In this document: one piece after another, positions 8,445 through 23,806 of the stretch
Layout: each line of letters begins with the position of its first letter
Numbering within the stretch: the first letter of the stretch is position 1
Assembly: GCA_025544715.1 (NCBI GenBank)
Contig: GCA_025544715.1_4109.5
Reading direction: 5' to 3' (one strand)
Origin: Escherichia coli
GTDB lineage: Bacteria; Pseudomonadota; Gammaproteobacteria; Enterobacterales; Enterobacteriaceae
DNA: 23,806 nucleotides
Notes under the pieces: model-generated
Told to the model about the DNA's origin: nothing
Databases searched by the model: none
What the model saw: only the letters and a program-made list of their open reading frames with translations
Translations under genes and position numbers: made by a program

Positions 8445-8468
8445 GCAATACACATCACCAAACATCAT

Positions 8469-8941: not shown

Positions 8942-8971
8942 ATGATTGATATTAATTTTAAGGGAGTCCCT

Positions 8972-10900: not shown

Positions 10901-11136
10901 ATCACAAAATGTATTGTAAACTATTACAATCACTGGCACAGAAACACTATGATACAGTATCTGAAATATTACCCTATGATATCATGCGTTTAATTCATAG
11001 TGAGGCCGAGATGCTTGTACTGATGAGAGGGACTGATAAAACAGCAATAGCCAGATCGATTGAGCAATATATTGATGCACACTGCCAACACATGAGAACC
11101 GAAATCTGGAGGAAAGAGAATGAAACTCCTGAGTAA
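10873..11136 (+). CDS. family-1 paralog 10 (divergent)
   Basis: LMRGTDKTAIARSIEQYI keeps G-T-D and spacing but loses the Q; overlapping frame. Confidence 0.55.
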   Translation: MEETMRQRLNHKMYCKLLQSLAQKHYDTVSEILPYDIMRLIHSEAEMLVLMRGTDKTAIARSIEQYIDAHCQHMRTEIWRKENETPE

Positions 11137-11353
11137 TTATGAATATTATAGTCTGTTGCGAACTATACAAGCAAAAGTTTCTAGTATTTCTTTAAACAAA
11201 TCTATTGCACAAGAGGACAAATGTGTTATAATGGCTGAAATGAAGTTAGCTCTCTTCGTTGGAACAAACTATCAAAACATCTACACTGACGTATTGTTAG
11301 CCAGCCTACGCAACAAGGTGTTATCCAAAAATGAGAAAATTACAAGGTGTTGA
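11120..11353 (+). CDS. family-1 paralog 11
   Basis: MKLLSNYEYYSLLR N-terminus; LFVGTNYQNIY motif. Confidence 0.65.
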   Translation: MKLLSNYEYYSLLRTIQAKVSSISLNKSIAQEDKCVIMAEMKLALFVGTNYQNIYTDVLLASLRNKVLSKNEKITRC

Positions 11354-11549
11354 ATATATTAAGCTTCTGAAAACCTGTGCAAGCAGAAGGAGAAAGATTC
11401 AAAATGATAAAAGCATCTCTATTGACCTTAAGCACGCACTAGTAACTGAACTCTATGTAGGTGCACTCTTAGGCACAGACTATCAACAAATGTATGTAGA
11501 CATGTGGATTGAGGCTCTACTGAAAGAGGTTAAAAGTAAATGCAAATGA
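11331..11549 (+). CDS. family-1 paralog 12
   Basis: ALLGTDYQQMYV...KSKCK. Confidence 0.65.
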   Translation: MRKLQGVEYIKLLKTCASRRRKIQNDKSISIDLKHALVTELYVGALLGTDYQQMYVDMWIEALLKEVKSKCK

Positions 11550-11785
11550 TTAATTTAACTTATATTGAATATCAAAAACGTTTAAATGCATCCAGAGATA
11601 TAAGGATTCAAATATTCAATAACAAAAGATTGAAGCCTGATATCAGGAAAATCAAAATCATAGAAGCAGAGTTGTGCAACTTTTTAGGGACGAACTATCA
11701 GGCAGGTAAGGTAAAAAACTATCTTAGAGAACTCATGAATAGTATTGAAAATAAATGCAAGGATAATGAATATGAAAATGATTAA
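11540..11785 (+). CDS. family-1 paralog 13
   Basis: NFLGTNYQAGKV motif; in-frame ATG 11546 would give the usual ATGA overlap. Confidence 0.65.
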   Translation: MQMINLTYIEYQKRLNASRDIRIQIFNNKRLKPDIRKIKIIEAELCNFLGTNYQAGKVKNYLRELMNSIENKCKDNEYEND

Positions 11786-12011
11786 ATTATCTCAAGCAAA
11801 ATATAAAGAACGCCTGGTGAAAATTGCACCTGGACTTAATGAAATCCATCACGGAGAAGTCATTAAACATGGAAATAAGATGATTATGAAACTTGAGTTA
11901 AAGGTGGGTGCATTCATAGGAACAAACTATCAGGAGTATTATGTAGATGAATACATAATCGCACTTAAGAGATACATTGGAAGAAAACTATATCTACAAA
12001 CTAAAGAATAG
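11772..12011 (+). CDS. family-1 paralog 14
   Basis: ORF-track start 11745 is TTG; ATG 11772 follows AAGGA; AFIGTNYQEYYV motif. Confidence 0.6.
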   Translation: MKMIKLSQAKYKERLVKIAPGLNEIHHGEVIKHGNKMIMKLELKVGAFIGTNYQEYYVDEYIIALKRYIGRKLYLQTKE

Positions 12012-12040
12012 TATTGAAAATAAATGCGAGGATAATGAAC

Positions 12041-12304
12041 ATGAAAATGATTAATTTAAGTAAAGATGAATATACCGAGCGTATGGCAAAAATCTCAACT
12101 AAACGTAACACACTCTATCACAACCCAGAAATTCAACACAGTAAGAAAATGATTATGATGCGTGAGTTAAAGATGGGAGTATTCTTAGGAACAAACTATC
12201 AAGATACAGAAGTAAATCGCTTAATTTCGGAGTTACTAATGGAAATCAGAGGTAAGCTGTACTTTCATCAAATTACCCAACCACTGAGGTGTACTAAGAA
12301 ATGA
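12041..12304 (+). CDS. family-1 paralog 15
   Basis: ORF-track start 12014 is TTG; ATG 12041 follows GAGGA; VFLGTNYQDTEV motif. Confidence 0.6.
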   Translation: MKMINLSKDEYTERMAKISTKRNTLYHNPEIQHSKKMIMMRELKMGVFLGTNYQDTEVNRLISELLMEIRGKLYFHQITQPLRCTKK

Positions 12305-12516
12305 TCAACATCACATTGCAAGAAAGATTCATCCGAATCAACTATGCAATTACCAAATTAGATGCTACTATAGGATTCCAAAGTCTACCATATAAAACCA
12401 GATTGTTATTAGAGTGTGAAGCTAAGTTGGGTGTACTGTTAGGGACGCAACACCAACAACGATATGTGGAAATCTGGATTGACCTTTTAACCCAAAATAT
12501 ATATGAGAGAATGTAA
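12301..12516 (+). CDS. family-1 paralog 16
   Basis: ATGA overlap; VLLGTQHQQRYV motif. Confidence 0.7.
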   Translation: MINITLQERFIRINYAITKLDATIGFQSLPYKTRLLLECEAKLGVLLGTQHQQRYVEIWIDLLTQNIYERM

Positions 12517-12753
12517 ATGCAAAATGAAATGATATACTTAACGAATGAAGAATTTCAAGAGAAGATGTTAAAAACCAAAAACATTAATCTTAAGTTCGTT
12601 CCAAATCAATCAATATCTGAAGTATCTGCAAATGTATTGTTTCAGAAGCTACCATACTTTCTTGGAACTGATAAACAAGAATTTATGGTTCAAAATATGA
12701 TTGAACATCTTATGATGAGTATTAAGGAAAAAGTAAATGCAAAAACAAAATGA
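12517..12753 (+). CDS. family-1 paralog 17
   Basis: starts right after upstream stop; YFLGTDKQEFMV motif; N-terminus MQNEMIYLT shared with next gene. Confidence 0.65.
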   Translation: MQNEMIYLTNEEFQEKMLKTKNINLKFVPNQSISEVSANVLFQKLPYFLGTDKQEFMVQNMIEHLMMSIKEKVNAKTK

Positions 12754-13003
12754 AATGATATACTTAACACCTGCTGAGTTAACAGAAAGACTAGTTAAAT
12801 CCAGAAGATATACAAATCAACTTCCTCACAACCCAAACCAGACCCCAGCCGAAAGGAGTGCAGAAGTTTTATTCCAATCACTACCATACCTTCTTGGAAC
12901 TAATAGACAAGAGTATCATATCGAACGTATAATTAGATATCTTAAAATTACTATTCAGGAAAAGATACATGAACAAGAATATAAAAATCTTTACGGTCAA
13001 TGA
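12737..13003 (+). CDS. family-1 paralog 18
   Basis: YLLGTNRQEYHI motif; N-terminus MQKQNEMIYLT. Confidence 0.65.
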   Translation: MQKQNEMIYLTPAELTERLVKSRRYTNQLPHNPNQTPAERSAEVLFQSLPYLLGTNRQEYHIERIIRYLKITIQEKIHEQEYKNLYGQ

Positions 13004-13226
13004 ATATCATGATATTATAATGAAGACGAATATTGTAAATTCTAAAATTTCAAATACCAAGTTCATCCTTGAACATACATTAGAAGAACGACAATTGATA
13101 TTAGTTGAAGCAAAACTTCTTGCACTATTAGGTTCTAACTATCAAGACGAGTACATAAGAAAACTAATATACCTTTTAACTAAACATATCAGAAAAAAGA
13201 CACATGAAACACTTGACAGACGATGA
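12969..13226 (+). CDS. family-1 paralog 19
   Basis: ALLGSNYQDEYI motif. Confidence 0.65.
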   Translation: MNKNIKIFTVNEYHDIIMKTNIVNSKISNTKFILEHTLEERQLILVEAKLLALLGSNYQDEYIRKLIYLLTKHIRKKTHETLDRR

Positions 13227-13434
13227 ACATGGGCTTATAGTAATGGATGTAATCAACATCGAATACAAAAAGTTGATACGCTACCGTTGTTATGAAGATA
13301 AGCAACTAGTTCTAGCAGAACAGAAGTTGTTTCGACTCTTAAACACAAACTACCAAGCACAATACGAAGAATCGTATATGTACCTTTTGGCGAGGAAAGC
13401 AAAAAGAGATTATGAAAATTTTAAGCAAAGGTGA
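13204..13434 (+). CDS. family-1 paralog 20
   Basis: RLLNTNYQAQY motif; first 24 nt identical to paralog 8 (ATGAAACACTTGACAGACGATGAA). Confidence 0.65.
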   Translation: MKHLTDDEHGLIVMDVINIEYKKLIRYRCYEDKQLVLAEQKLFRLLNTNYQAQYEESYMYLLARKAKRDYENFKQR

Positions 13435-13639
13435 TTCAGTAATATTACTTATAGAGAGTTCAAGTCAATTCTTAAACATATCACTGTCTGATATAGATGA
13501 AGATGATAAAGAAGTACTGAGAGCAGATTTAAGAGTACTGTTACATCTCGGAACAAACCTACAAGAAAGATATGTAGAGTACTACATTGATGAACTTAAA
13601 GAATCAGTACTGAGAAAATGCAAATGCAAATGCGAATGA
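13412..13639 (+). CDS. family-1 paralog 21
   Basis: HLGTNLQERYV motif; C-terminus KCKCKCE encoded by AAATGC hexamer repeat. Confidence 0.65.
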   Translation: MKILSKGDSVILLIESSSQFLNISLSDIDEDDKEVLRADLRVLLHLGTNLQERYVEYYIDELKESVLRKCKCKCE

Positions 13640-13851
13640 TTACCGACGAAGAATACCTAACAATCATAAATGGACTGTTTTTGAAGCTCTTCGTCATTAA
13701 CACATCAGATATACCAGATATGGATAAAATTATTAAGAGAAATGAAATCTATGTTCTAGCTACCCTGGGAACTAACTATCAAGAATACGATATTAATGAT
13801 TATATTAAGACACTTAAACGAGCGATTGAACTAAAATGCCAAAACCACTAG
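13618..13851 (+). CDS. family-1 paralog 22
   Basis: ATLGTNYQEYDI motif; start may be ATG 13636 (ATGA overlap). Confidence 0.6.
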   Translation: MQMQMRMITDEEYLTIINGLFLKLFVINTSDIPDMDKIIKRNEIYVLATLGTNYQEYDINDYIKTLKRAIELKCQNH

Positions 13852-14051
13852 GAACAGCAGAATACATTGAACTCATGGGATTACACTTCTCATCCTTTCA
13901 GAAACTTATGCGAGAATCAAAGAATGATTTAGAATATACCATCAGAGGTTCAGATTTAAGAATGCTTCTCACCCTAGACACAGATTCCCAAGAGCGATTT
14001 GTCAATGAGCACATTAGAGCACTTTTAATGGAAATTCAAAGTAAACTATGA
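13836..14051 (+). CDS. family-1 paralog 23
   Basis: TLDTDSQERFV motif. Confidence 0.65.
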   Translation: MPKPLGTAEYIELMGLHFSSFQKLMRESKNDLEYTIRGSDLRMLLTLDTDSQERFVNEHIRALLMEIQSKL

Positions 14052-14263
14052 AGGTAATATCAAACCAAGAGTACTTGGCACTATTCAGAAAGAATAATCA
14101 TAAATTTATGGCACTTGATACAAGAACTGATATAGGGGAACTTGAAAAAAATCTTTTGCGTTCAGAGATGATAGTACTGACACTCTTAGGAACACAGCAT
14201 CAAGAAAGAACTGTTAATTCACACATAGAAATACTTAAGAAGCTTATACAGGAAAAGTTATGA
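14048..14263 (+). CDS. family-1 paralog 24
   Basis: ATGA overlap; TLLGTQHQERTV motif. Confidence 0.7.
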   Translation: MKVISNQEYLALFRKNNHKFMALDTRTDIGELEKNLLRSEMIVLTLLGTQHQERTVNSHIEILKKLIQEKL

Positions 14264-14481
14264 GAATCATAACACAACAAGATATGTTTAAGTTCACAAG
14301 GGATTATGCATCTGAATTTGATGCTATATTATCAAAAAGTTACAATGACCCTTATACAGAAGATGTACACTACAATGAATTATGGATGTATATACTTTTA
14401 GGTACAAATAAGCAAGAGCAAGCAGTACAGAAGTATTTGACAGCCTTAAGTACTGCTACTGCTAATGGAGTATGTGTTTAA
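14260..14481 (+). CDS. family-1 paralog 25
   Basis: ATGA overlap; ILLGTNKQEQAV motif. Confidence 0.7.
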   Translation: MRIITQQDMFKFTRDYASEFDAILSKSYNDPYTEDVHYNELWMYILLGTNKQEQAVQKYLTALSTATANGVCV

Positions 14482-14725
14482 AATGCTAGTACTGACAGAA
14501 TTAGAAATGGCAATGAGGTTTAATAGATTCAGACATTTACTTAAACCTATACAGAGGATTAAGTGCCCATTTGTAGTGAAACAGGTATTAATTTATGAGC
14601 ATAAGTTATTTGTATCATTAGGTACGAATGAACAAGAGTATTATTTGAAGTTGTACTTAATTACATTAATAGATTTAATTCACTATAAAACCAAACAAGC
14701 TAATAAAGAGAAATATGAAAACTAA
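14465..14725 (+). CDS. family-1 paralog 26
   Basis: VSLGTNEQEYYL motif; alternative start ATG 14483. Confidence 0.6.
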   Translation: MEYVFKMLVLTELEMAMRFNRFRHLLKPIQRIKCPFVVKQVLIYEHKLFVSLGTNEQEYYLKLYLITLIDLIHYKTKQANKEKYEN

Positions 14726-15059
14726 TATACAACTCAAGGTATATAAATCATTTGAACATACATATATCAAAAGTAGTCTATGTAGAGATGTAATGGATTA
14801 CAAGGGTAAGCCATTCACAATTACCTATGATTCTTATGTTAGTGATTTATATATATCATTTGTTAATTACGAAAATAAAATATACAAGCACGTTGATATT
14901 AAAGATTTAAGTACTTTATCACCAGAGGAATACTTTCAGGAATCATTAGTATGGGATTTAGAGTTTCCTATGCCATTAGTACATAAGATGATAGTACTAA
15001 TGAAAGAATCTAAACAGGAGCCTAATAGTGCTTATGAAGAACACATTATTGAGTATTAA
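14715..15059 (+). CDS. family-2 paralog (acidic-FQ motif protein, 114 aa)
   Basis: SPEEYFQESLVWDLEF motif; overlaps end of last family-1 gene. Confidence 0.65.
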   Translation: MKTNIQLKVYKSFEHTYIKSSLCRDVMDYKGKPFTITYDSYVSDLYISFVNYENKIYKHVDIKDLSTLSPEEYFQESLVWDLEFPMPLVHKMIVLMKESKQEPNSAYEEHIIEY

Positions 15060-15082
15060 GAGTACTGATAGTACAAATGTTC

Positions 15083-15111
15083 TTGACTGTACTTTTCATT
15101 ACTGATATAGT
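15083..15111 (+). promoter_or_regulatory. candidate sigma70-type promoter
   Basis: TTGACT (15083-15088), 17-nt spacer, TATAGT (15106-15111). Confidence 0.5.
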
Positions 15112-15140
15112 GCACCAACGTTAATCATAGGGTACAGATT

Positions 15141-15386
15141 ATGTTAAAATTTTTAAATTTCCTTATCGTCTTGTGTATTGTTCTTGGAATTGCACCGTTT
15201 GTATTAGCGTATCTGGATTCAGATGAAATGCAGAAGATGAATTGTACAAAGACAGGACAGAGTAGAGAAGAGACGGTTATGATACCCGTAACGGTTATTG
15301 TTAATAACATACCAATTACGAACATGATTCCTACCCTAACGACAACGTACCAGTACTCTTGTACAGATGGAGAGAGATGGAGATGA
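15141..15386 (+). CDS. small membrane or secreted protein (81 aa)
   Basis: hydrophobic N-terminus MLKFLNFLIVLCIVLGIAPFVLAYL; stop overlaps next start (ATGA). Confidence 0.5.
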   Translation: MLKFLNFLIVLCIVLGIAPFVLAYLDSDEMQKMNCTKTGQSREETVMIPVTVIVNNIPITNMIPTLTTTYQYSCTDGERWR

Positions 15387-15703
15387 AATTTAATATAGCA
15401 AAAACATCGAATGTATGTATATTTGGTTATGCAGATGAGTTAGGTGATCTTGACATTCTTTTGTACAAAAAGGATGGTGTTATGCATTTCAAGTACCAGG
15501 ATGAAGAGGCAGACAATTATCCTTTACCTAATTTAGTACAAATGCAGGAAGATGAATTATTCCAGTACAGCTTAGTATATGACATTGATATTTGCACGAT
15601 GCCAGTACTAATTAATATTCAAAAAGTGATGCTCGATGTGTTTGATAGGCTAATACAAGGCACACAAGGAAGAACCATATATGTCAATGTACAAGACAAT
15701 TAA
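15383..15703 (+). CDS. family-2 paralog (106 aa)
   Basis: ORF-track start 15359 is TTG; ATG 15383 overlaps upstream stop; QEDELFQYSLVYDIDI motif. Confidence 0.6.
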   Translation: MKFNIAKTSNVCIFGYADELGDLDILLYKKDGVMHFKYQDEEADNYPLPNLVQMQEDELFQYSLVYDIDICTMPVLINIQKVMLDVFDRLIQGTQGRTIYVNVQDN

Positions 15704-15745
15704 TCAAGAACATAAAACCTAAAATACAGGGAGTACAGAGAACGT

Positions 15746-16012
15746 ATGCAAAACACAAGGTATTATAAAAAAGTAAACCAATATTTGTACGCATCGAAGT
15801 ACAGGGATTTTTGTTTAAAGGGTGGTGATGAAGATTTTTCTTTGCGATTATCAGAATTTAATCTGTTATTTTATCTTGGTACATCGGAACAAGAAGAAAT
15901 GGCACAGAAATTTATCAAGCACCTTGAACAAAAAATTCATATGCAAATTTTGATGCTTAAGGTACATAATGAGATAAACAAATATGAATCCAACAATAGT
16001 ACAGGATCTTAA
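15746..16012 (+). CDS. family-1 paralog, dispersed copy (88 aa)
   Basis: LFYLGTSEQEEMAQKFIKHLEQKIH matches family-1 C-terminal block although located inside the family-2 zone. Confidence 0.6.
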   Translation: MQNTRYYKKVNQYLYASKYRDFCLKGGDEDFSLRLSEFNLLFYLGTSEQEEMAQKFIKHLEQKIHMQILMLKVHNEINKYESNNSTGS

Positions 16013-16373
16013 ACAAGTAATATTCCTTTTGAATACAAGAAGTTCCTTGTATACAGAGTTAAAAGATATTAATGCATTTTATCAGAATTTTGTAATTCAA
16101 GAGTTCAGTGATTTAATTACAGATGCATTATTTGAATTATCGGAAAAATACAAAGGAAAAGAGTTCAGTGTTAAGAATGTATTACGTCCTTTATCAAAGC
16201 GTATAATAAAATTAGATTGTTTCGAATTTGACAATAAAGATTTATTCGGTCATAATCTAAGTACAGCTTTATATTTTATTCCTGATTCAGACAAAAATCA
16301 TCCTATTCATTACGGATGGATTTTGTCTTACATAGAACAAGGAAAGGAGTATCCTATTAAATGGAACGATTAG
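15984..16373 (+). CDS. hypothetical protein (129 aa), possible degenerate family-2 member
   Basis: long ORF on coding strand; weak NAFYQNFVIQEF resemblance to the FQ motif. Confidence 0.5.
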   Translation: MNPTIVQDLKQVIFLLNTRSSLYTELKDINAFYQNFVIQEFSDLITDALFELSEKYKGKEFSVKNVLRPLSKRIIKLDCFEFDNKDLFGHNLSTALYFIPDSDKNHPIHYGWILSYIEQGKEYPIKWND

Positions 16374-16521
16374 GGCGATTAGATTATTACACAATTAATA
16401 CAAATTATTTGTTGAGTAATATAAAATCCGATTACAAAATATGGATAAAGAACAGAGATAGTATGTGTTATGAATTTTATTTAGATTATGCCATCAAACG
16501 ATTTTTAAGAGAAGAACATTA

Positions 16522-16722
16522 ATGCACACACCGCACAAAGAGCACACAAAGCACAAAAATACAAAAACGATAAATGTTTTAAATGATTCTTTATTGGTGA
16601 GTATAAATTTATATTATAAAATTCATTTAAATGGTGGTATTGAAAATTTTAGTTATTATTTGAGTGCAATATCGCAAGAGCATTTAATATACCAAGATCA
16701 TTTATTGCACCCGAATCCATAA
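16522..16722 (+). CDS. doubtful small ORF (66 aa)
   Basis: no convincing RBS; begins in CA-rich low-complexity DNA; kept only because it is on the coding strand of a 350-bp gap. Confidence 0.25.
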   Translation: MHTPHKEHTKHKNTKTINVLNDSLLVSINLYYKIHLNGGIENFSYYLSAISQEHLIYQDHLLHPNP

Positions 16723-16730
16723 GGCGAATT

Positions 16731-17276
16731 ATGAATGAGATAGAATTATTAGCACACAAGATTAGTACAATAATGCTTATCCTCAATAACAACCATCCTA
16801 TATCGCAGATAGATGGAATCCTGAGTCAGAGGACAGGTGGTAGTTTATATTTGACATTAACAGAGGTTATCGCAAGGAATTACATTGATATTGAAATCGA
16901 GAACAGTGATGCATCAGGAAAGGTTGATGTAGGTGCATTAATCAGTTCAAATCCAGTATCAGCATCACCATTGACACGAAATGTAAGTACAGGATTCGAA
17001 GGGTATTTGTGGTACAATACCAATGATGATTATTTTATATATCAGCATTCAAATACAAATTATGATGAAGACAAATTTAAGTTCATAGACCCTTATGATG
17101 AAGCTGAAGTATTTCAAAAATCATTAATCACAAAACCGCATGAGATGATGTATCTAATGTTATTCAGTACAATGCATTTGAATCCATTAATTAAAGGTTT
17201 AAAATTTTATATTCAATTGAATTTAGTCCATGTAGTTTATGATTTATTAATGCAAGGATATAGTTATGAAGTATAA
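16731..17276 (+). CDS. family-2 paralog, long form (181 aa)
   Basis: DEAEVFQKSLI motif; C-terminus ...VYDLLMQGYSYEV parallels C-terminus of 17887-18462. Confidence 0.65.
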   Translation: MNEIELLAHKISTIMLILNNNHPISQIDGILSQRTGGSLYLTLTEVIARNYIDIEIENSDASGKVDVGALISSNPVSASPLTRNVSTGFEGYLWYNTNDDYFIYQHSNTNYDEDKFKFIDPYDEAEVFQKSLITKPHEMMYLMLFSTMHLNPLIKGLKFYIQLNLVHVVYDLLMQGYSYEV

Positions 17277-17577
17277 AATGCTTTATACATTAACATTAAT
17301 ATATGTAGAATTAGAATCCGATTCAGATGCATGGAATTTAGTTAAAGAGGTCGATACAAATCAATGGTACATGGCAAATTTAGACGCACAGGTTGTTACG
17401 GATTATTTTATAGATTTTAATACATTATCTGAAGAAGAATTTTTCCAAATGCAATTGGTGGTTGACATGTACGGGCATGACATGGTAACATTACGAAATA
17501 TACAGAAAGCCGTTAATGAAATCCAAAGCAAGAAAGATTATGAGGTAGGAGCGTATTATGACATCGACGTACAATGA
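17266..17577 (+). CDS. family-2 paralog (103 aa)
   Basis: LSEEEFFQMQLVVD motif; close paralog of next gene. Confidence 0.7.
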   Translation: MKYKMLYTLTLIYVELESDSDAWNLVKEVDTNQWYMANLDAQVVTDYFIDFNTLSEEEFFQMQLVVDMYGHDMVTLRNIQKAVNEIQSKKDYEVGAYYDIDVQ

Positions 17578-17588
17578 GTACAATAGTT

Positions 17589-17906
17589 ATGAAGTATAAA
17601 ATGCTTAATACAGTATCAGGGATATATGTAGAATTAGAATCCGATTATTCAGATGGATGGAATTTTATTAAACGCCACGATATAAATACATGGTACATGG
17701 CACATTTGGATAATGACGTAATAATAGATAATTTTGTCGATTTTAATACATTATCAGAAGAAGAATTTTTCCAAATGCAATTTGTGCTTGATACAAATGG
17801 ATTTGATTTGCTATTATTAAGGAATATTCAGAAAGCGGTTAATGAATTCATAATCCAAAATAATTCAGGTAAAATGGGGATGTTCCATGATCTGGAAGTA
17901 CAATGA
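17589..17906 (+). CDS. family-2 paralog (105 aa)
   Basis: start placed at ATG 17589, homologous to the start of 17266; LSEEEFFQMQFVLD motif. Confidence 0.65.
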   Translation: MKYKMLNTVSGIYVELESDYSDGWNFIKRHDINTWYMAHLDNDVIIDNFVDFNTLSEEEFFQMQFVLDTNGFDLLLLRNIQKAVNEFIIQNNSGKMGMFHDLEVQ

Positions 17907-18462
17907 AAGCAACGATTACAATGAAATTCAGTACACCTACGCTAATGCAATCCTTATGGGACAAAAATTAGCTTGTATTGTTGCAGCCTTATATAATGCA
18001 CAGAAAGATTACAAGCGTCATATCCACAAATGTATTGGTATTATTCCATCTAAGTACAATACATATATTGCGTGCACGAGTCATTTTGATAAACGATTCA
18101 ATACACCTGATACCCCAAATGCCAGTAGTGTTATTGGTCTTTTGGATTTCGCACCTGGTGCTGTTATTGGAAAGAATGATTTAGAGTACGCATGGTATAA
18201 TAAAAATTCCCCATTAGTAATGGTAAAATATGATACAGAAACGAACAAAACAATAGAGTACAATACATATAAATCAGAGGAAGAATTTTTCCAAGGTTCA
18301 TTGCTTGTGCCAGTGCGTTTGTTGTTTTATAATGTCCTTATTAGTACAGTACACAATAGTCCATTACACAAGAATCACAAAATTAATTTCAATTTTTGTG
18401 CTTATGCGATTGATGGTGTGTATGAGTGTTTAATGGAGGTATTGAGTTATGAAGCTGAATAA
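17887..18462 (+). CDS. family-2 paralog, long form (191 aa)
   Basis: SEEEFFQGSLLV motif; C-terminus ...VYECLMEVLSYEAE. Confidence 0.65.
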   Translation: MIWKYNESNDYNEIQYTYANAILMGQKLACIVAALYNAQKDYKRHIHKCIGIIPSKYNTYIACTSHFDKRFNTPDTPNASSVIGLLDFAPGAVIGKNDLEYAWYNKNSPLVMVKYDTETNKTIEYNTYKSEEEFFQGSLLVPVRLLFYNVLISTVHNSPLHKNHKINFNFCAYAIDGVYECLMEVLSYEAE

Positions 18463-18790
18463 TACATTTGATATTAATAAGTTAAGAGAATGGTTTTATA
18501 GTATTGAAATTGAAGCCATCCCGTATCATAGATATGAACAATATAATTTAACCAGTATTGATATCCGTGAGTTGTACGCGTATTATCAAAGTGCATTAGA
18601 GATGCATAAGTTATTTTTGAGTACAGATTTTGTTCTAAATTACAATTTTGAGGAATTTAATAATTATAATTTAGTACAGAAATATGTAGTAGCAAAGTAC
18701 ATGTACCTTCAAGGAATTACAAGTACCGTGGAATTCAATACAGTCCTTGCTTTAGTTGAGGTAATTTTATGCAGTACATGTATGATTTAG
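18449..18790 (+). CDS. hypothetical protein (113 aa), possible degenerate family-2 member
   Basis: ATG overlapping upstream gene end; ELYAYYQSALEMH weakly motif-like. Confidence 0.55.
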   Translation: MKLNNTFDINKLREWFYSIEIEAIPYHRYEQYNLTSIDIRELYAYYQSALEMHKLFLSTDFVLNYNFEEFNNYNLVQKYVVAKYMYLQGITSTVEFNTVLALVEVILCSTCMI

Positions 18791-19275
18791 AGTTCAGTTT
18801 AGATGCAGCATTTAAATATGTTCACAAGATAGAAACAATATACAGTACATTATGTGCAATACAATCAGTATCATCTGAGTTTGATGTTGGTGAAAAATAT
18901 CAGGTATGGAATAATACATTTCTAAACAAAGAACGTTGCTCTACGGGGTTTAATATTTTAACATTTAATCCCAGCAATTGTTACCCAGAGAAGCATGAAC
19001 GTTATCCGAATGACGACATGTGGTTTGATTACACAAAAGATGGTGATATGTCATCCCTTGTAGTTCCTGATGATTTTAATGCCGAAGATTTAACGAAAGA
19101 GTGGTGGTTTCAACAGAATTTAGTACACGATGATATTGATTTATTTTTTTATGTAGTATTTAAAATGCTTTACCACAACAATATATTAAAAGATAGTGTG
19201 TTTTTTTCATGTCTATATATTGATGATTTGTACAATGAAATCCAAATCAACATGCCCATAACGCCTGTATCGTAA
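18769..19275 (+). CDS. family-2 paralog (168 aa)
   Basis: TKEWWFQQNLVHDDIDL motif. Confidence 0.65.
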   Translation: MQYMYDLEFSLDAAFKYVHKIETIYSTLCAIQSVSSEFDVGEKYQVWNNTFLNKERCSTGFNILTFNPSNCYPEKHERYPNDDMWFDYTKDGDMSSLVVPDDFNAEDLTKEWWFQQNLVHDDIDLFFYVVFKMLYHNNILKDSVFFSCLYIDDLYNEIQINMPITPVS

Positions 19276-19290
19276 GATATGGGCTTTTTT
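19255..19290 (+). terminator. possible terminator (CCCATA / TATGGG stem plus T-run)
   Basis: 6-bp stem with large 17-nt loop followed by CTTTTTTCGTTTT; large loop lowers confidence. Confidence 0.35.
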
Positions 19291-19300
19291 CGTTTTGGTA

Positions 19301-19329
19301 TTGACAAAGAAGTGCAAAGCTGTTATCAT
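19301..19329 (+). promoter_or_regulatory. sigma70-type promoter
   Basis: TTGACA (19301-19306), 17-nt spacer, TATCAT (19324-19329). Confidence 0.6.
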
Positions 19330-19357
19330 GTGTAATCATTTTAAAGGAGAACATATA

Positions 19358-19870
19358 GTGAGTTTCATAATCCCAAGTACATACGAAGATGCATCAAGTG
19401 CAGTTCATAAGATTCATTATATTTTTAATTTAATTATTAGATCTGCAAAAATTAAAATGTATGCACCTCTTGTGACAAATAATCGAAATGAAGAAATTTT
19501 TATTAGCACAGACAAAATTATTTTTCCATATTTCAATGAAGATAGATTGTGGTTCATACATTTAGCTGCATTACAAAAATATAAGATGTCAATTCGTAAT
19601 AATTTGGTTATACCGTTATATCATCCCGATATTGGAGAGGATGAATATTTTCAGTACAGCACAGTACACCGCCATGAAGATATCTTTGCTGCTATGCTTA
19701 TTGCTAAATTGAACACCGTTGATTTGGAGCAGTACAAATACAATAATAAATCATGTAAGATCATAATCCCTGCATTCATAGCTCTTTATGATTATGTGGT
19801 GCATAACAAAAAAGATGATACATATGCTTTCAATGAAGAGTATTTGGATTTTTTTAAGGAGAACATATGA
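19358..19870 (+). CDS. family-2 paralog (170 aa), GTG start
   Basis: ORF-track start 19295 is TTG inside the promoter; GTG 19358 lies 8 nt after AAGGAG; GEDEYFQYSTVH motif. Confidence 0.55.
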   Translation: MSFIIPSTYEDASSAVHKIHYIFNLIIRSAKIKMYAPLVTNNRNEEIFISTDKIIFPYFNEDRLWFIHLAALQKYKMSIRNNLVIPLYHPDIGEDEYFQYSTVHRHEDIFAAMLIAKLNTVDLEQYKYNNKSCKIIIPAFIALYDYVVHNKKDDTYAFNEEYLDFFKENI

Positions 19871-20394
19871 GCAGTGAAGTAGAGAAAGCAATGACATTCA
19901 ATGAAATTGGTACATTTAAAGATAAGATCATTGATTGTCTTGAATACATGATTTGTAGTAATATCGAGAGTATTGAGATATTTAACAAGAGAAATCGCTC
20001 TTATCATATGATGTACATTGCAAACAATAATGGTATCCTTCCATTTATTTCGGATAGTACAATATGGTACGCATGTGATACGAAAAAATACACAGTAGGT
20101 TCACATGTATTTGAGACACATTATGATCTAATTATTCCTGAGCATTGTATGCAAGAAGAAGAATATTTTCAAATGCAATGTGTACATGCACCATTAGTGT
20201 TGTTTAGTTTATATATTGTACCTTATATCACCAAATGTGTTCATGAGAATAAAGCTCCGTGGAATCATGAATTTGTATCATTGAAGTTATTGTATAATGT
20301 ATTAGCAGAATATTATGATTACAGGCACAATGGTACAATCAGCGATGTATGGGATTTCGAAAATTTAAGGGTGAAAACATACACAGGGGCATAA
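19867..20394 (+). CDS. family-2 paralog (175 aa)
   Basis: ATGA overlap; QEEEYFQMQCVH motif. Confidence 0.7.
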   Translation: MSSEVEKAMTFNEIGTFKDKIIDCLEYMICSNIESIEIFNKRNRSYHMMYIANNNGILPFISDSTIWYACDTKKYTVGSHVFETHYDLIIPEHCMQEEEYFQMQCVHAPLVLFSLYIVPYITKCVHENKAPWNHEFVSLKLLYNVLAEYYDYRHNGTISDVWDFENLRVKTYTGA

Positions 20395-20395
20395 C

Positions 20396-21010
20396 ATGAG
20401 CAGAATGAAAATGAATGATTTGATGCAGTACAGTAAAATTGCTATTCCAGTGCTTAATAAAGTGCTGGATGCATTCATTGCCAAATACCCTGAGAATTCA
20501 GTGTTATGTATTCCATTTAGTGTTCCAGATAAAGATGATATATTCCAAGTGAATGTCAGTACACGTGGTATTACATTACAGCAGAAATACATGGATACGG
20601 AATATTATGGAATAAAGTTGGATTCAGTACAGGGTTCAAAATCAGCCTATGATTTTTTTGTTCCTAATAATATAGAGTCATGGGAAACAAACATTTCAAA
20701 GAAAGATGAAAATGATGTTCCTATTAGTGGTGTGTTCAACAATAAAGTTTTTTATTATTACGAAACCGACAAATTCCCTGAAGAGTTATATTATAATTCA
20801 GAAATGAATGAAGATGTAGATGCATTCATGTTTCAATTATCGTTAGTACATGATATCATTGATGTTCAAGAGTTAAGAGCAGAAATCAATTTAGCTAAAG
20901 AATTATCGGACATGCTGCCACCGTTTAGTATGCTTTTTTGTGAAGGAGGTTATTTTTCAAAAGAAGTGTTTGAACATTTCGTAGATGTTGTAAAAGGGTT
21001 GGATATATAG
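20396..21010 (+). CDS. family-2 paralog (204 aa)
   Basis: EDVDAFMFQLSLVHDIIDV motif. Confidence 0.65.
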   Translation: MSRMKMNDLMQYSKIAIPVLNKVLDAFIAKYPENSVLCIPFSVPDKDDIFQVNVSTRGITLQQKYMDTEYYGIKLDSVQGSKSAYDFFVPNNIESWETNISKKDENDVPISGVFNNKVFYYYETDKFPEELYYNSEMNEDVDAFMFQLSLVHDIIDVQELRAEINLAKELSDMLPPFSMLFCEGGYFSKEVFEHFVDVVKGLDI

Positions 21011-21011
21011 T

Positions 21012-21206
21012 ATGCTTATAGTTGATATTAAACAAAAATACCGTAAGTTTGATTGGTTCACCGACAGTTTCCAGCTTGAATTATTACATTTGAATATCTG
21101 TGAAACATTATGTGCAGAAACACAAGATGAATTAGATGATAGAGTGATGAACATAGTAATGCTTTCTTGCTTTAAACATTTTGGTTATTTTTTCGGACAG
21201 AATTGA
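21012..21206 (+). CDS. hypothetical protein (64 aa), possible degenerate family-2 member
   Basis: FTDSFQLELLHLNI weakly motif-like; tightly packed between neighbours. Confidence 0.5.
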   Translation: MLIVDIKQKYRKFDWFTDSFQLELLHLNICETLCAETQDELDDRVMNIVMLSCFKHFGYFFGQN

Positions 21207-21214
21207 GGTATAAA

Positions 21215-21730
21215 ATGCATCAACACAAGCATCATTCATATGATTTTGCAATTAACATCATGAAGTTCATTCGAGCGTTGGAGGATGGTAAGCTTAGTCA
21301 TAAGTACAGGGAAGAGGGTAACAATTGGTTCAGAAATGATTCCGAGTTCAGTTGTCATAAAATCGTGTATAGTAATCATTACAGGGCCAATTACCTACAA
21401 GATGTAGTGATGTGTTTTGAATATGTGTTGCAGTTCAGGGGTTCAATCCAAGATGAGTTGATGGAGAACATGTACATCCGATACCTTCCAATGCTCAAAG
21501 ATGAAAATGTAGCATTCAATTCGATATACCAACGAGTTCGTGAAATAGAGTGCAGGGATATATTAGATACAGAAGAATCGTATTTCCAGCAATCCCTGAT
21601 TTATGCACCTGATTTATTACAGGTACATAATTTGTTTAATACATTACGTCAGAACATCAGTACAGACATATTTTTGTCATTATCGGATTATGATACATTT
21701 GTCAAAGATTTAGAGGAAATAGGTTTATGA
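21215..21730 (+). CDS. family-2 paralog (171 aa)
   Basis: ORF-track start 21203 is TTG; ATG 21215 follows GAGG; TEESYFQQSLIYAPDLL motif. Confidence 0.65.
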   Translation: MHQHKHHSYDFAINIMKFIRALEDGKLSHKYREEGNNWFRNDSEFSCHKIVYSNHYRANYLQDVVMCFEYVLQFRGSIQDELMENMYIRYLPMLKDENVAFNSIYQRVREIECRDILDTEESYFQQSLIYAPDLLQVHNLFNTLRQNISTDIFLSLSDYDTFVKDLEEIGL

Positions 21731-22071
21731 GTAGGTTTTCAGTTTATATAGTAAACGTCAGTAAAGATGGTAGTTTAATTGAATTTGATGTAGTTGATAA
21801 CAATGATAATTCATATGGTATTAAGGTACAAGACAATGATGTACAGTTCAGTACAAGGACAAATTTTGAGAATCCAGTCCAAGTTCCGAATTTCATAGAA
21901 GATGAAGCTGCACGATTCCAATACGAAACGGCATATGACAATGTACATATGCATATTATTATGCAAACGAGTTTAGTTCAATTAGTTCCTTTGTTCAGAC
22001 AAAATATATATGTACATGAAGTGTCGATTAATGGCATTCAAAGTTCCGTTTTGTTCGGTACAAATATGTAA
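21727..22071 (+). CDS. family-2 paralog (114 aa)
   Basis: ATGA overlap; EDEAARFQYETAYDNV motif. Confidence 0.65.
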   Translation: MSRFSVYIVNVSKDGSLIEFDVVDNNDNSYGIKVQDNDVQFSTRTNFENPVQVPNFIEDEAARFQYETAYDNVHMHIIMQTSLVQLVPLFRQNIYVHEVSINGIQSSVLFGTNM

Positions 22072-22081
22072 GGAAAGTACA

Positions 22082-22633
22082 ATGAGTTCAATGAGTTTAT
22101 TAGATACATTAGAAAAAGACAGAAGTGCCATTAAGCGTTTAAAAGAGCAAGTACAGAAGATTGTATACAACGTTGATAAGTTTGAGGTTCCCGGAAGATT
22201 TGGTGATATTTCCCATACGGAGATCAAATCCCTTAAGTCAGATTTGTTGATTAAAAATAAAAATGCGTTGATTTTAGTTTTGAGTTCAGATATGATGGGG
22301 GCAACACATAGTTATAATGCCGTATCAGTGCGTTCCGAGTGTGAAGGTATATATCTATCACAGGGTTTCAATAGTGAGACACAGGTTGGGTTTTGTGATG
22401 CTGTACATGACCCTATGAAGTTCACGAGAAGTGAAGCCCAAGCGTTATTAGAGCTATCAGACGAGAGTTTGTTTCAGTACAGTACAATGTATGACAATGA
22501 TAAGCTTCGTTGTATGTACGCTGTGAAGCATTATACACATGAGTTCTCTGGATTTGCATACCTTTTAGTTAGAACCAATACCTCATATATTGATATGTTA
22601 GAAGATTACATCGATAAAGTTGTTAATGTATGA
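22082..22633 (+). CDS. family-2 paralog (183 aa)
   Basis: ATG 22082 follows AAGGA (ORF-track start 22010 lies inside upstream gene); SDESLFQYSTMYDND motif. Confidence 0.6.
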   Translation: MSSMSLLDTLEKDRSAIKRLKEQVQKIVYNVDKFEVPGRFGDISHTEIKSLKSDLLIKNKNALILVLSSDMMGATHSYNAVSVRSECEGIYLSQGFNSETQVGFCDAVHDPMKFTRSEAQALLELSDESLFQYSTMYDNDKLRCMYAVKHYTHEFSGFAYLLVRTNTSYIDMLEDYIDKVVNV

Positions 22634-22652
22634 TGTATGATTATGGGATGGG

Positions 22653-22823
22653 ATGATGCTGATGAAAGAGTTATTTGAAGATCAGTTCAATACATATGTG
22701 GACAATATTCTTTATTCTAGCCGTGCTAGTCAACGAGGAAATCGTGCTTACAACATAGATTACCTATTAGTGGTGCTGAGTTCACAGTACACCTACGCTG
22801 TACAGAGGACATATTATGAATAG
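22653..22823 (+). CDS. doubtful small ORF (56 aa)
   Basis: translated by hand from ATG 22653; weak RBS; fills gap between neighbours on coding strand. Confidence 0.3.
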   Translation: MMLMKELFEDQFNTYVDNILYSSRASQRGNRAYNIDYLLVVLSSQYTYAVQRTYYE

Positions 22824-23025
22824 TGCAAGTAATAGTGATATTGCCAAGGAGAAGTTTAAGTGCAGTTTAGATTACGGTTTAAATGATTTTCTTACATGCA
22901 CAATGTACAGGGATGATGATTATGAACAATCCGTAATTTCGTTGCACAGATATTTCGAAATAATTTACGCAAGATATCTTAGAAGGTTAGAGGGAATAGG
23001 GGATTGGAATTATGATTACGTTTGA
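22816..23025 (+). CDS. hypothetical protein (69 aa)
   Basis: ORF on coding strand; end overlaps next start. Confidence 0.5.
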   Translation: MNSASNSDIAKEKFKCSLDYGLNDFLTCTMYRDDDYEQSVISLHRYFEIIYARYLRRLEGIGDWNYDYV

Positions 23026-23236
23026 AGAGCCGGAAGTGGCATATTGCTTTAGTGTGAAAGGTTTTGAATTCATGATGGATTCGATTTTGAAGGATACATA
23101 TTTGGTTCAGATTGCAGTTACAGATAATACAGATAATGTATTACAGCGTGTATTGAATATATACGAGAGGACGAGTCGAAGGCTTTGTGCAATGAAAAGG
23201 ATTGAAGAAATCAAGGTTTCTAGGCTGAATAAATAG
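23012..23236 (+). CDS. hypothetical protein (74 aa)
   Basis: ATGA-type overlap with upstream gene. Confidence 0.55.
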   Translation: MITFEEPEVAYCFSVKGFEFMMDSILKDTYLVQIAVTDNTDNVLQRVLNIYERTSRRLCAMKRIEEIKVSRLNK

Positions 23237-23427
23237 AGACATTTCGTTTTCACAGGCCGCTGGAGGGGGTCAAAAAAATTTCCGCTGAAAAACATGCTAA
23301 GGTATATGTTTAATATAAAGTTTTATATTGTGTTTTTCAGAGTACAGTTCATGTTTCCTTAAACAAAAATACCCCGCCGCCGAACGTGCTCTTTATATTG
23401 TAGTTTACCTTATTAATTATAGTAGAG

Positions 23428-23806
23428 ATGAAGATGGAAATAAAATATAATGAATTTTGTGCAAGGACATGGATGTACACTGGTGAGTTAGTTACGCACT
23501 CTAACTTATACAAGGGTGATTTAAACTACGCTAGGGACAAGATTTTAAAGTACTGGAATGCTGACTTTTATTTGATGGATTTTAGTACTGGGTTTAGGGG
23601 TAAAGCAACCGAGATGTTGGACTATACAGTACTTGATGATGCTGCACTGTTTCAGGAGGCATTAGTATTTGACAAGAAGTACATCTGTACATTAGAAGAG
23701 ATGATTGAATTACAGCGTAGAATTAAATGTATTCACAGGGAATGTATAGATATCTGGTGCAGTACTGGTGAAGATGATTTTTGTAATCATTTCAATCTAG
23801 GGGAAG
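23428..23806 (+). CDS. family-2 paralog, 3'-truncated by window end
   Basis: translated by hand: MKMEIKYNEF...LDDAALFQEALVFDKKY...; no stop before window end; start may be 23434. Confidence 0.55.
   Translation, partial: MKMEIKYNEFCARTWMYTGELVTHSNLYKGDLNYARDKILKYWNADFYLMDFSTGFRGKATEMLDYTVLDDAALFQEALVFDKKYICTLEEMIELQRRIKCIHRECIDIWCSTGEDDFCNHFNLGE

What the first reader, a model, noticed from the sequence alone, without database searches (positions are those of the whole stretch)
14715..23806. Second paralog family with acidic-FQ motif (at least 14 members)
Genes at 14715, 15383, 16731, 17266, 17589, 17887, 18769, 19358, 19867, 20396, 21215, 21727, 22082 and 23428 share a motif approximating [ED]-[ED]-x-[FYL]-F-Q-x-[SQ]-L-[VI]-x-D (examples EEEFFQMQLVVD, EEEYFQMQCVH, DELFQYSLVYD, ESYFQQSLIY). 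Sizes range from about 100 to 200 aa; the two long members (16731 and 17887) also share a C-terminal ...L-M-x-x-[LY]-SYE end. Degenerate candidates lie at 15984, 18449 and 21012. Together with the first array this gives about 15 kb of paralog expansion.
Basis: seen in the sequence. Interest (0 to 1): 0.8.

Follow-up and report, generated by a model that had tools for sequence, protein, structure and literature searches.

The report
Large FQ-motif jumbo-phage gene family
This stretch of a giant E. coli virus (121Q/PBECO4 type) holds 14 copies of a real, old family of small acidic proteins built around an invariant Phe-Gln helix. The family has about 36-46 copies per genome and no known relative or function, and it probably acts early in host takeover.

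Summary
All 14 listed genes carry the [ED][ED]x[FYL]-F-Q-x-S-[LT]-[VI] segment. There are 12 strict matches against 0.015 expected by shuffling. A profile built only from sequences outside the window hits exactly these 14 genes and no shuffled decoy. The three "degenerate candidates" (15984, 18449, 21012) are not supported.

The window comes from an Asteriusvirus jumbo phage, 95% identical to Escherichia phage 121Q. The array continues past the window end: in 121Q it spans genes 342-408 (about 28 kb). A profile built from other genera supports 36 of those genes, and about 46 carry the motif. The family also occurs in Klebsiella phages (RaK2/Muenster) and in Erwinia phage Hallingskeid, partly as collinear orthologues, so the expansion is old.

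No Pfam, NCBIfam, PADLOC or PDB relative was found. PHROGs splits the family into many groups of unknown function. The AlphaFold model (pLDDT 70) shows a four-stranded sheet plus two helices, with the motif in the first helix, and no convincing fold match.

The proteins are acidic, absent from the phAPEC6 virion proteome and under purifying selection (dN/dS about 0.3). The array lies about 5.8 kb beyond the ~21-kb terminal repeat.

The best reading, which is inferred, is an early battery of host-interaction proteins on one shared scaffold. Function is untested.

The parts
14715..15059 (+). FQ-family member, short form, 114 aa (LSPEEYFQESLVWD)
   Evidence: Non-window HMM E 1.4e-9. Best match is a paralog in the Erwinia phage.
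15383..15703 (+). FQ-family member, short form, 106 aa (MQEDELFQYSLVYD); target of the AlphaFold model
   Evidence: HMM E 1.7e-10. AF2 pLDDT 69.8, pTM 0.64, motif in helix 56-63.
16731..17276 (+). FQ-family member, long form, 181 aa, with ...GYSYEV C-terminus
   Evidence: HMM E 1.2e-6. BLASTP E 4e-7 to 17887.
17266..17577 (+). FQ-family member, short form, 103 aa; extra tandem copy that 121Q lacks
   Evidence: HMM E 3.8e-5. 61% identical to 17589; only 60% identical to 121Q gene 350.
17589..17906 (+). FQ-family member, short form, 105 aa
   Evidence: HMM E 5.9e-6. 98% identical to 121Q gene 350.
17887..18462 (+). FQ-family member, long form, 191 aa, with ...LSYEAE C-terminus
   Evidence: HMM E 3.7e-8.
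18769..19275 (+). FQ-family member, long form, 168 aa (LTKEWWFQQNLVHD)
   Evidence: HMM E 1e-8.
19263..19284 (+). Terminator-like hairpin plus T-run at the end of gene 18769
   Evidence: Consensus scan only.
19301..19329 (+). Sigma-70-like promoter (TTGACA-17-TATCAT with TG), in the 82-nt gap before gene 19358
   Evidence: Consensus scans only, 11 of 12 matches.
19358..19870 (+). FQ-family member, long form, 170 aa (GTG start, AAGGAG ribosome-binding site)
   Evidence: HMM E 1.9e-7. The start agrees with the phAPEC6 gp455c annotation.
19867..20394 (+). FQ-family member, long form, 175 aa (MQEEEYFQMQCVHA)
   Evidence: HMM E 2.8e-8.
20396..21010 (+). FQ-family member, long form, 204 aa; the family motif is the second FQ (aa 146, DVDAFMFQLSLVHD)
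   Evidence: HMM E 3.9e-3, still above all decoys. Weakest member.
21215..21730 (+). FQ-family member, long form, 171 aa (DTEESYFQQSLIYA)
   Evidence: HMM E 3.9e-11, the best window hit. Clusters with 121Q genes 370-391.
21727..22071 (+). FQ-family member, short form, 114 aa, divergent (EDEAARFQYETAYD)
   Evidence: HMM E 1.7e-3, above all decoys.
22082..22633 (+). FQ-family member, long form, 183 aa (LSDESLFQYSTMYD)
   Evidence: HMM E 7.7e-9.
23428..23806 (+). FQ-family member, short form, cut by the window end (LDDAALFQEALVFD); the start may be 23470, as in 121Q gene 365
   Evidence: HMM E 1e-7. 99% identical to 121Q gene 365.
15083..15111 (+). Sigma-70-like promoter (TTGACT-17-TATAGT with TG), in the 81-nt gap after gene 14715
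   Evidence: Consensus scans only, 10 of 12 matches.

Best explanation
Shown:
- The 14 genes are true paralogs of one protein family specific to RaK2-like jumbo phages: Asteriusvirus, Alcyoneusvirus and Erwinia phage Hallingskeid.
- The family has about 36-46 tandem copies per genome.
- The array follows the first small-protein array, which itself starts at the inner edge of the ~21-kb direct terminal repeat. This places the FQ array about 5.8 kb beyond that edge.
- The proteins are small (100-200 aa), acidic, non-virion and cytoplasmic, and they are kept under purifying selection.
- Many copies are retained as separate, collinear orthologues across genera.

Predicted with moderate confidence:
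- The common core is a four-stranded antiparallel sheet packed against two helices.
- The [ST]-E-E-E-h-F-Q-x-S-[TL]-[VI]-h-D segment is the first helix. It has an N-cap plus acidic N-terminus, with F probably buried.
- Long forms add an N-terminal amphipathic helix.

Inferred:
- The family is an early or delayed-early battery of host-interaction (host-takeover or anti-defence) binding proteins.
- Each copy keeps the same keystone helix and scaffold, while its sheet, loops and N-terminal extension have diverged to recognise a different host or defence target.
- The array grew by tandem duplication and is reshuffled by recombination between related phages.
For: Family reality: motif statistics; iterative HMM with no decoy hits; a non-window HMM that hits 14 of 14 genes; a Klebsiella/Erwinia-only HMM that hits 36 121Q genes above the first of about 3750 decoys; F and Q invariant in 85 sequences from three phage groups; independent BFVD models of paralogs with 16-24% identity that superpose at TM 0.61-0.75.

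Extent: 121Q genes 342-408; 27 ORFs in Muenster and 21 in Hallingskeid.

Antiquity and non-redundancy: half of the members match a copy in another genus better than any paralog in their own genome. The pairs are collinear: 121Q genes 388/393/400/405/408 with Muenster genes 107/112/119/124/127.

Selection: dN/dS is 0.1-0.65 for all members.

Non-virion: none of phAPEC6 gp400-470 appears among the 62 virion proteins (PMC7247149 Table 1).

Acidic: pI 4.1-6.1 in the window, median 4.8 in 121Q.

Position and context:
- In fEgEco12 the 20,993-bp terminal repeat, confirmed by restriction digest, ends in the gap that corresponds to window 8723-8941 (PMC13070987).
- The terminal-repeat side carries six perfect sigma-70 consensus promoters plus DksA/TraR, GNAT and kinase-like genes.
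- A putative ADP-ribosyltransferase sits inside the array in 121Q and Muenster.
- In the related jumbo phage PA5oct, the genes of the terminal-repeat end are the early genes (PMC7318152).

Structure: AF2 pLDDT 69.8, pTM 0.64, with the highest confidence (87) over residues 51-60 next to the motif.
Against: - No experiment or homologue ties any member to a function. Timing of expression is inferred from position and from a distant relative (PA5oct) that lacks the family in its first 50 kb.
- Inside the array sigma-70-like promoters are few and imperfect, so the genes could be middle genes.
- dN/dS gives no sign of the positive selection often seen in arms-race genes.
- Long-term conservation of individual copies across hosts fits housekeeping-type targets at least as well as fast-evolving defence systems.
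- The conserved acidic N-cap, F, Q and S could be purely structural, which leaves no clue to what is bound.
Confidence: 0.45

Rival explanations
1. Common-partner (adaptor) model. The invariant acidic FQ helix is an exposed docking surface that every paralog uses to bind one shared partner, either a host hub or a phage enzyme such as the embedded ADP-ribosyltransferase or the kinase. The variable remainder selects different substrates or targets for that partner.
For: F and Q are invariant, and E-E (80% and 72%) and S (84%) are strongly conserved, in proteins otherwise only 10-25% identical. A conserved putative ADP-ribosyltransferase is embedded in the array.
Against: All the conserved residues can be explained structurally: an S/T N-cap, acidic residues at a helix N-terminus, and a buried Phe. 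The motif lies in the most confidently folded part of the model rather than in a linker. No partner is known.
Confidence: 0.2
2. Expendable, selfishly amplified ORFans. The array is duplicated filler with little or no function, and the motif is only what is needed for folding.
For: Copy number differs between close relatives: 17266 is an extra copy, and 121Q has an extra first-family gene 345. No function or homologue is known.
Against: dN/dS is about 0.3 in every member. Individual copies are retained in the same order across genera that infect different hosts. The array takes up about 28 kb of a genome whose size is limited by the capsid.
Confidence: 0.1
3. Small enzymes. The conserved E, E, Q and S residues form an active site, for example for modifying a host molecule.
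For: The invariant or near-invariant residues are polar and clustered.
Against: Only F and Q are invariant. There are no conserved His, Cys, Lys, Asp or Arg residues. The core is only about 100 aa. There is no match to any enzyme family or fold. Forty divergent copies of one enzyme would be unusual.
Confidence: 0.06
4. Processing-site model. The motif is a cleavage site of TEV/3C type (E-x-x-Y-F-Q | G/S) for a Gln-specific protease, so the proteins are cut into two halves during infection.
For: Several copies match E-x-x-Y-x-Q-(G/S) literally, for example EEGYFQGS and EEMYFQGS in 121Q and Muenster and EEEFFQGS in gene 17887.
Against: P1' is highly variable (Y, L, E, Q, M, N, K), while Ser at P2' is the conserved residue. 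Both models place the motif in a helix with the highest confidence, not in an accessible linker. No Gln-specific protease was identified. The only protease seen in the fetched annotations is a head maturation protease, and members are absent from virions.
Confidence: 0.03
5. Motif-only resemblance. Short and long forms are unrelated proteins that share a short convergent or exchanged segment and do not form one homologous family.
For: hhalign between the short and long subfamilies aligns only 15-33 columns around the motif (probability 44-70%).
Against: Other subfamily pairs align over 45-70 columns at 81-95% probability. Conserved positions lie on both sides of the motif, including an upstream D, a downstream h-Q-K helix, an F/Y pair and the C-terminal strand. 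Cross-genus HMMs recover both forms. A 140-aa RaK2 member matches the short-form model structurally.
Confidence: 0.04
6. Virion-packaged or internal head proteins that are injected with the DNA.
For: phAPEC6 has an inner body and many unassigned virion proteins (PMC7247149).
Against: None of the 62 virion proteins detected by mass spectrometry falls in gp400-470.
Confidence: 0.02

Closest known systems
PHROGs groups phrog_13866, 12674, 22855, 15629 and at least nine single-member groups (all of unknown function)
   Same: These groups contain the same proteins. Six, five, four and three of the 14 window members respectively cross-hit the first four profiles.
   Different: PHROGs splits the family into many unlinked groups and gives no function. 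The unifying FQ helix, the count of about 40 copies per genome and the cross-genus extent are not recorded there.
[quoted passage not shown]
   Same: Tandem, same-strand multigene families of small uncharacterised proteins that occupy a sizeable part of a jumbo phage genome.
   Different: This is a different fold and motif with no recognisable domain. This specific family is not described in those papers or in the other papers examined. CBB was reported to have only 22 paralogous ORFs.
Early host-takeover gene blocks at terminally redundant genome ends: PA5oct terminal-repeat early genes (PMC7318152); SPO1 and T5 terminal-repeat modules (own knowledge)
   Same: Position near the terminal-repeat end, small same-strand ORFs, host-type promoters nearby, and non-virion products.
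   Different: Those blocks are mostly unrelated single genes, not a 40-member paralog family. The FQ array lies outside the repeat, after the first array that starts at its edge. Timing has not been measured for any Asteriusvirus.
Tandem arrays of diversified immunity or inhibitor proteins, for example SUKH/Imm families of polymorphic toxin systems (own knowledge; analogy only)
   Same: Small alpha+beta single-domain proteins in tandem arrays of highly divergent paralogs. This is the model of 'one scaffold, many targets'.
TEV NIa and picornaviral 3C protease recognition sites (ENLYFQ|G/S, LEVLFQ|GP) (own knowledge)
   Same: An acidic-x-x-aromatic-F-Q string. Some copies fit E-x-x-Y-x-Q-G literally.
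   Different: The residue after Q is not conserved, the segment is predicted to be a folded helix, and no cognate protease is known.

Membership tests
FQ-helix family of RaK2-like jumbo phages (defined here) | Significant match to a profile built from members in other genomes | tested here: met
   An HMM from 71 non-window sequences hits all 14 genes (E 4e-11 to 4e-3), above all 4800 decoys. No other ORF of the region is hit.
FQ-helix family of RaK2-like jumbo phages (defined here) | F-Q in register, preceded by an acidic [ST]EEE-type stretch and followed by x-S-[TL]-[VI]-aromatic-[DN] | tested here: met
   F and Q are invariant in the 85-sequence alignment. All 14 window genes align in register in the 85-sequence alignment A3, and 13 in A2 and A6. 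In A1 20396 was misaligned.
FQ-helix family of RaK2-like jumbo phages (defined here) | Shared fold among divergent members | tested here: inconclusive
The AF2 model (pLDDT 69.8) matches BFVD models of paralogs at TM 0.61-0.75.
FQ-helix family: degenerate candidates 15984, 18449, 21012 | Profile match or motif in register | tested here: not met
   No hit. 21012 has only a weak pairwise match to 20396 (E 0.38).
First window family (LGTNYQE, about 70 aa) | Profile-profile similarity to the FQ family | tested here: not met
   hhalign probability 0.0-0.2%. The first-family HMM hits only 15746 and 121Q genes 379/380 within the second array.
Any curated protein family (Pfam, NCBIfam, PADLOC) or solved structure | Match above the curated threshold, or E<0.001 | tested here: not met
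Bacterial beta-clamp-binding motif proteins (QL[SD]LF / QLxLxL; own knowledge) | Q followed by a hydrophobic residue at +1, Leu at +3 and a hydrophobic/aromatic end, in a flexible segment | tested here: not met
   Position +1 is variable (Y, L, E, Q...). Position +3 is Thr as often as Leu (39 versus 37). The segment is predicted helical inside the fold.
Substrates of TEV/3C-type Gln-specific proteases | E-x-x-Y-x-Q followed by G/S at P1', in an accessible linker, with a cognate protease encoded | tested here: not met
   P1' is not conserved and the motif lies in a confidently predicted helix. No cognate protease was searched for systematically, and cleavage was not tested.
Virion or structural proteins | Detection in purified particles | tested here: not met
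   Orthologues gp447c-gp466c and their neighbours are absent from the phAPEC6 structural proteome table.
Early (host-RNA-polymerase-transcribed) phage genes | Expression in the first minutes of infection from sigma-70 promoters | not testable with these tools
   Only indirect evidence is available. The array lies about 5.8 kb beyond the terminal repeat, which carries six perfect sigma-70 consensus promoters. The array itself has only two decent promoter-like sites. No transcriptome of an Asteriusvirus was found in the library.

The most novel reading that the evidence does not exclude
The invariant acidic F-Q helix may be a functional 'handle' shared by about 40 paralogs rather than a folding element. 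It could be a docking or recognition element (possibly even a Gln-specific cleavage or modification site) through which one phage or host machine acts on, or is directed by, dozens of different specificity modules. On this reading the array is a phage-encoded adaptor library that retargets a single hub to many host proteins, an organisation known from eukaryotic viruses (F-box/BTB expansions) but not from phages.
Probability: 0.15. Interest if true: 0.85.

Novelty: new member of a known kind. Interest (0 to 1): 0.5.

Why it matters
Asteriusvirus and RaK2-like jumbo phages are being developed for therapy, yet more than 80% of their genes are unannotated. Recognising that about 40-46 'hypothetical proteins' (about 28 kb, 8% of the genome) are one old family with a single invariant helix turns dozens of ORFans into one tractable problem. 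One structure, one mutational handle (F and Q) and one set of pull-downs could inform them all.

The retention of distinct copies across phages of E. coli, Klebsiella and Erwinia implies many separate, conserved tasks in Enterobacterales hosts. These would be candidate host-takeover or anti-defence activities.

The family also offers a clean sequence marker (an HMM) for this phage clade in metagenomes.

Tried and rejected
- An iterative HMM seeded only from window sequences stalled at 6 members. It needed the 121Q paralogs to converge.
The 28-sequence short-form profile returned mostly orthologues of 15383.
- The first AF2 run (14715, mixed short and long alignment) gave pLDDT 56 and was not used for fold search.
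- The afdb50 fold library was unavailable.
- tblastn with the family consensus found almost nothing.
- The first 50 kb of PA5oct, which has RNA-seq data, was scanned for members and none was found. Its timing data therefore serve only as an analogy.
- The beta-clamp-motif and TEV-site readings were considered and rejected on the residue pattern and the predicted helicity.
- The promoter scan of the array region shows no enrichment over shuffles: 80 found against 91 expected.

Full report
ORIGIN OF THE WINDOW
The 9.1-kb region is 95% identical over 99% of its length to Escherichia phage 121Q (KM507819, positions 160771-169641). It is 87-94% identical to about 30 other Asteriusvirus jumbo phages of E. 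coli and Salmonella. Every gene under the match is annotated 'hypothetical protein' in 121Q, phAPEC6 and fEgEco12.

CHECKING THE OBSERVATION
- A strict form of the motif is at least 2 acidic residues in the 5 positions before h-F-Q, then x-[SQAN]-[LTCVF]-[VILM]. It occurs 12 times in the region's ORFs.
- The shuffle expectation is 0.0145 (2000 shuffles). The motif never occurs in the other frames or anywhere in window 1-14714.
- Codons at the invariant positions vary synonymously (TTT/TTC 8:6, CAA/CAG 8:6, Ser as both TCN and AGY). The conservation is therefore at the protein level and is neither a DNA repeat nor an AT-codon artefact.

Pairwise BLASTP alone is weak, except for 17266/17589 (61%) and 16731/17887 (E 4e-7). 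Profiles settle the question:
- An iterative HMM run against a database containing 3750 shuffled decoys and 47 upstream genes converged on 37 members with no false hit.
- An HMM built only from 71 sequences outside the window hit exactly the 14 listed genes (E 4e-11 to 4e-3). All ranked above all 4800 decoys (best decoy E 0.09), and no other ORF of the region was hit.
- The three 'degenerate candidates' (15984, 18449, 21012) are not supported.
- ORF 15746-16012 is a stray copy of the first (LGTNYQE) family.

TRUE EXTENT
In 121Q the array continues beyond the window end through gene 408 (position 189186).
- 33 further genes carry [ED][ED]x[YFL]FQxS[TL][VI].
- An HMM built solely from Klebsiella and Erwinia phage sequences recovers 36 of 121Q genes 342-408 above the first decoy. 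About 46 genes carry the motif.
- The family HMM also finds 27 ORFs in 50 kb of Klebsiella phage Muenster (Alcyoneusvirus, RaK2 group) and 21 ORFs in 50 kb of Erwinia phage Hallingskeid.
- All three phages show the same synteny: array, then DNA methyltransferase, nucleotidyltransferase, RNA ligase and polynucleotide kinase.
- In an 85-sequence alignment F and Q are invariant. The preceding E-E are 80% and 72% conserved, Ser at +2 is 84% conserved, and position +3 is T or L.
- An exhaustive HMMER scan of 1.84 billion representative proteins found only 30 hits at E<=0.001. Of the 23 that were new, 21 carry FQ, one carries FK and one is an N-terminal fragment.

The family is therefore confined to this clade.

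AGE AND DYNAMICS
About half of the members match a copy in a phage of another genus better than any paralog in their own genome.
- The best reciprocal pairs are collinear: 121Q genes 388/393/400/405/408 pair with Muenster genes 107/112/119/124/127.
- The expansion therefore predates the split between Asteriusvirus and Alcyoneusvirus, and individual copies have been kept.
- Recent changes are superimposed on this. The window has an extra copy (17266) that 121Q lacks. Neighbouring genes differ widely in divergence from 121Q and phAPEC6 (dS 0 to 0.97), which indicates mosaic recombination.
- dN/dS is 0.1-0.65 for every member, so all are under purifying selection.

WHAT THE PROTEINS LOOK LIKE
They are acidic (pI 4.1-6.1 in the window, median 4.8 in 121Q) and rich in aromatic residues.
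- Short forms (about 100-125 aa) have FQ at about residue 60-75.
- Long forms (150-200 aa) add about 50-70 N-terminal residues with an amphipathic-helix pattern. This comes from reading alignments A3 and A6 and is an inference.
- AlphaFold on 14715 with a mixed alignment was poor (pLDDT 56).
- AlphaFold on 15383 with a core-trimmed alignment gave pLDDT 69.8 and pTM 0.64. The model has four antiparallel strands (residues 2-38), a helix at 56-63 that contains DELFQYSL, a second helix at 73-90 and a short C-terminal strand. Confidence is highest (87) over residues 51-60.
- BFVD models of paralogs with only 16-24% identity superpose at TM 0.61-0.75, and no other viral protein matches.
- Pfam, NCBIfam, PADLOC and PDB sequence profiles give nothing.
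- PHROGs splits the family into more than 13 groups of unknown function with some cross-hits.
- hhalign links the subfamilies at 44-95% probability. The short-versus-long similarity is concentrated around the motif.

CONTEXT
In fEgEco12 the direct terminal repeat (20,993 bp, confirmed by restriction digest) ends in the gap between g056 and g057 (PMC13070987). That gap corresponds to window 8723-8941.
- Window 1 to about 8870 is therefore the inner end of the terminal repeat. The first family starts exactly at the boundary, and the FQ family follows.
- The terminal-repeat part has six perfect TTGACA-N16/17-TATAAT promoters and three sites with 11 of 12 matches, all in intergenic gaps. It also has DksA/TraR zinc-finger, GNAT and kinase-like genes.
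- The FQ array is tightly packed. 13 of 23 gene junctions overlap, and only 4 gaps exceed 40 nt. It has just two decent promoter-like sites (15083 and 19301), the latter directly after a terminator-like hairpin at 19263-19284.
- A putative ADP-ribosyltransferase is embedded in the array outside the window. It is 59% identical between 121Q gene 404 and Muenster gene 123.
- None of the array's orthologues is among the 62 virion proteins of phAPEC6 (PMC7247149).
- In the more distant jumbo phage PA5oct the genes of the terminal-repeat end are the early genes (PMC7318152). PA5oct lacks the family in its first 50 kb, so this is only an analogy.

INTERPRETATION
Shown: this is a real, old, clade-specific, tandemly expanded family of small acidic non-virion proteins under purifying selection.

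Predicted: a common alpha+beta core with the motif as its first helix.

Inferred: the proteins are expressed early or delayed-early and act as a battery of host-interaction proteins. They share one scaffold, and their diversified surfaces address different targets.

The conserved S/T-EEE-h-F-Q-x-S pattern can be read in two ways. It may be a helix N-cap with an acidic N-terminus and a buried Phe, which is a structural role. It may instead be a shared docking face, which is the adaptor rival. The data cannot separate these readings. The TEV-site and beta-clamp-motif readings do not fit the residue pattern or the predicted helix.

NOVELTY
The RaK2 paper noted that about 10% of its gene products are paralogues (PMC3622015). 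The CBB paper listed 22 paralogous ORFs (PMC5259590). A survey of jumbo phages described other expansions, such as about 35 zinc ribbons in phage G (PMC7824862). None of the papers I searched or read describes this family, its motif or its size.

It is thus a new, uncharacterised family within a known phenomenon: lineage-specific multigene expansions in jumbo phages. Interest is moderate. The family is striking in size and in the invariance of its motif, and it can be tested directly, but its function is unknown and the phenomenon itself is not surprising to specialists.

Noticed in passing
window 640-7130 (promoters at 1681, 2652, 2992, 3423, 5569, 7092; 11 of 12 matches at 643, 6772, 7539): There are six perfect sigma-70 consensus promoters (TTGACA-N16/17-TATAAT) and three near-perfect ones, each in an intergenic gap in front of a small gene. 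About 0.002 would be expected by chance in 8.9 kb. This marks the terminal-repeat end as a dense block of host-RNA-polymerase (immediate-early type) transcription units, in contrast to the promoter-poor arrays downstream.
   Followed up: partly
window 8723-8941: By alignment of gene order with fEgEco12 (terminal repeat of 20,993 bp, confirmed by restriction digest), the inner boundary of the ~21-kb direct terminal repeat falls in this 219-nt gap. The first paralog array begins immediately after it, behind a TTGACT-16-TAAAAT site at 8914.
   Followed up: partly
window 8942-14725 and 15746-16012: The first family (about 70-aa proteins with LGTNYQE) has 26 tandem copies plus a stray copy inside the FQ array. 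121Q has further strays (genes 345, 346, 379, 380). Twelve copies occur in Klebsiella phage Muenster, interleaved with FQ members. hhalign shows it is unrelated to the FQ family.
   Followed up: partly
window 379-636, 700-1056, 4534-5121: The upstream terminal-repeat genes include a DksA/TraR C4 zinc-finger protein (Pfam E 1e-11), a GNAT acetyltransferase (E 4e-9) and a weak protein-kinase-like protein (E 1e-3, annotated as a kinase in Muenster and fEgEco12). All are plausible host-takeover functions.
   Followed up: partly
L002 17922-18335 (121Q gene 404); L004 38161-38571 (Muenster gene 123): A 137-aa gene embedded in the FQ array is 59% identical between 121Q and Muenster, far more conserved than the flanking FQ orthologues (about 30%). 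The Muenster authors annotate it as a putative ADP-ribosyltransferase (HHpred). Pfam gave no hit here.
   Followed up: partly
window 14715-15059, 17266-17577, 21727-22071, 23012-23236: Divergence is mosaic. These genes are 61-86% identical to their 121Q counterparts while neighbours are 93-99% identical. 14715 and 23012 are 97% identical to phAPEC6, and 15141 shows the opposite pattern. This points to frequent recombination or gene replacement inside the array among co-circulating Asteriusviruses.
   Followed up: partly
window 15141-15386, 15984-16373, 16361-16722, 18449-18790, 21012-21206, 22653-23236: Nine small ORFs are interspersed in the array and belong to neither family. They have no Pfam hit. 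They are conserved in 121Q (64-99% identity) with dN/dS 0.05-0.9. 15141 has a hydrophobic N-terminal stretch that suggests a membrane protein.
   Followed up: partly
P0004, P0008, P0013, P0019 and others (homologous-protein hits): Many database copies of these phage proteins are labelled '[Escherichia coli]' and sit on contigs of 270-366 kb. These are whole jumbo-phage genomes deposited within bacterial assemblies.
   Followed up: no
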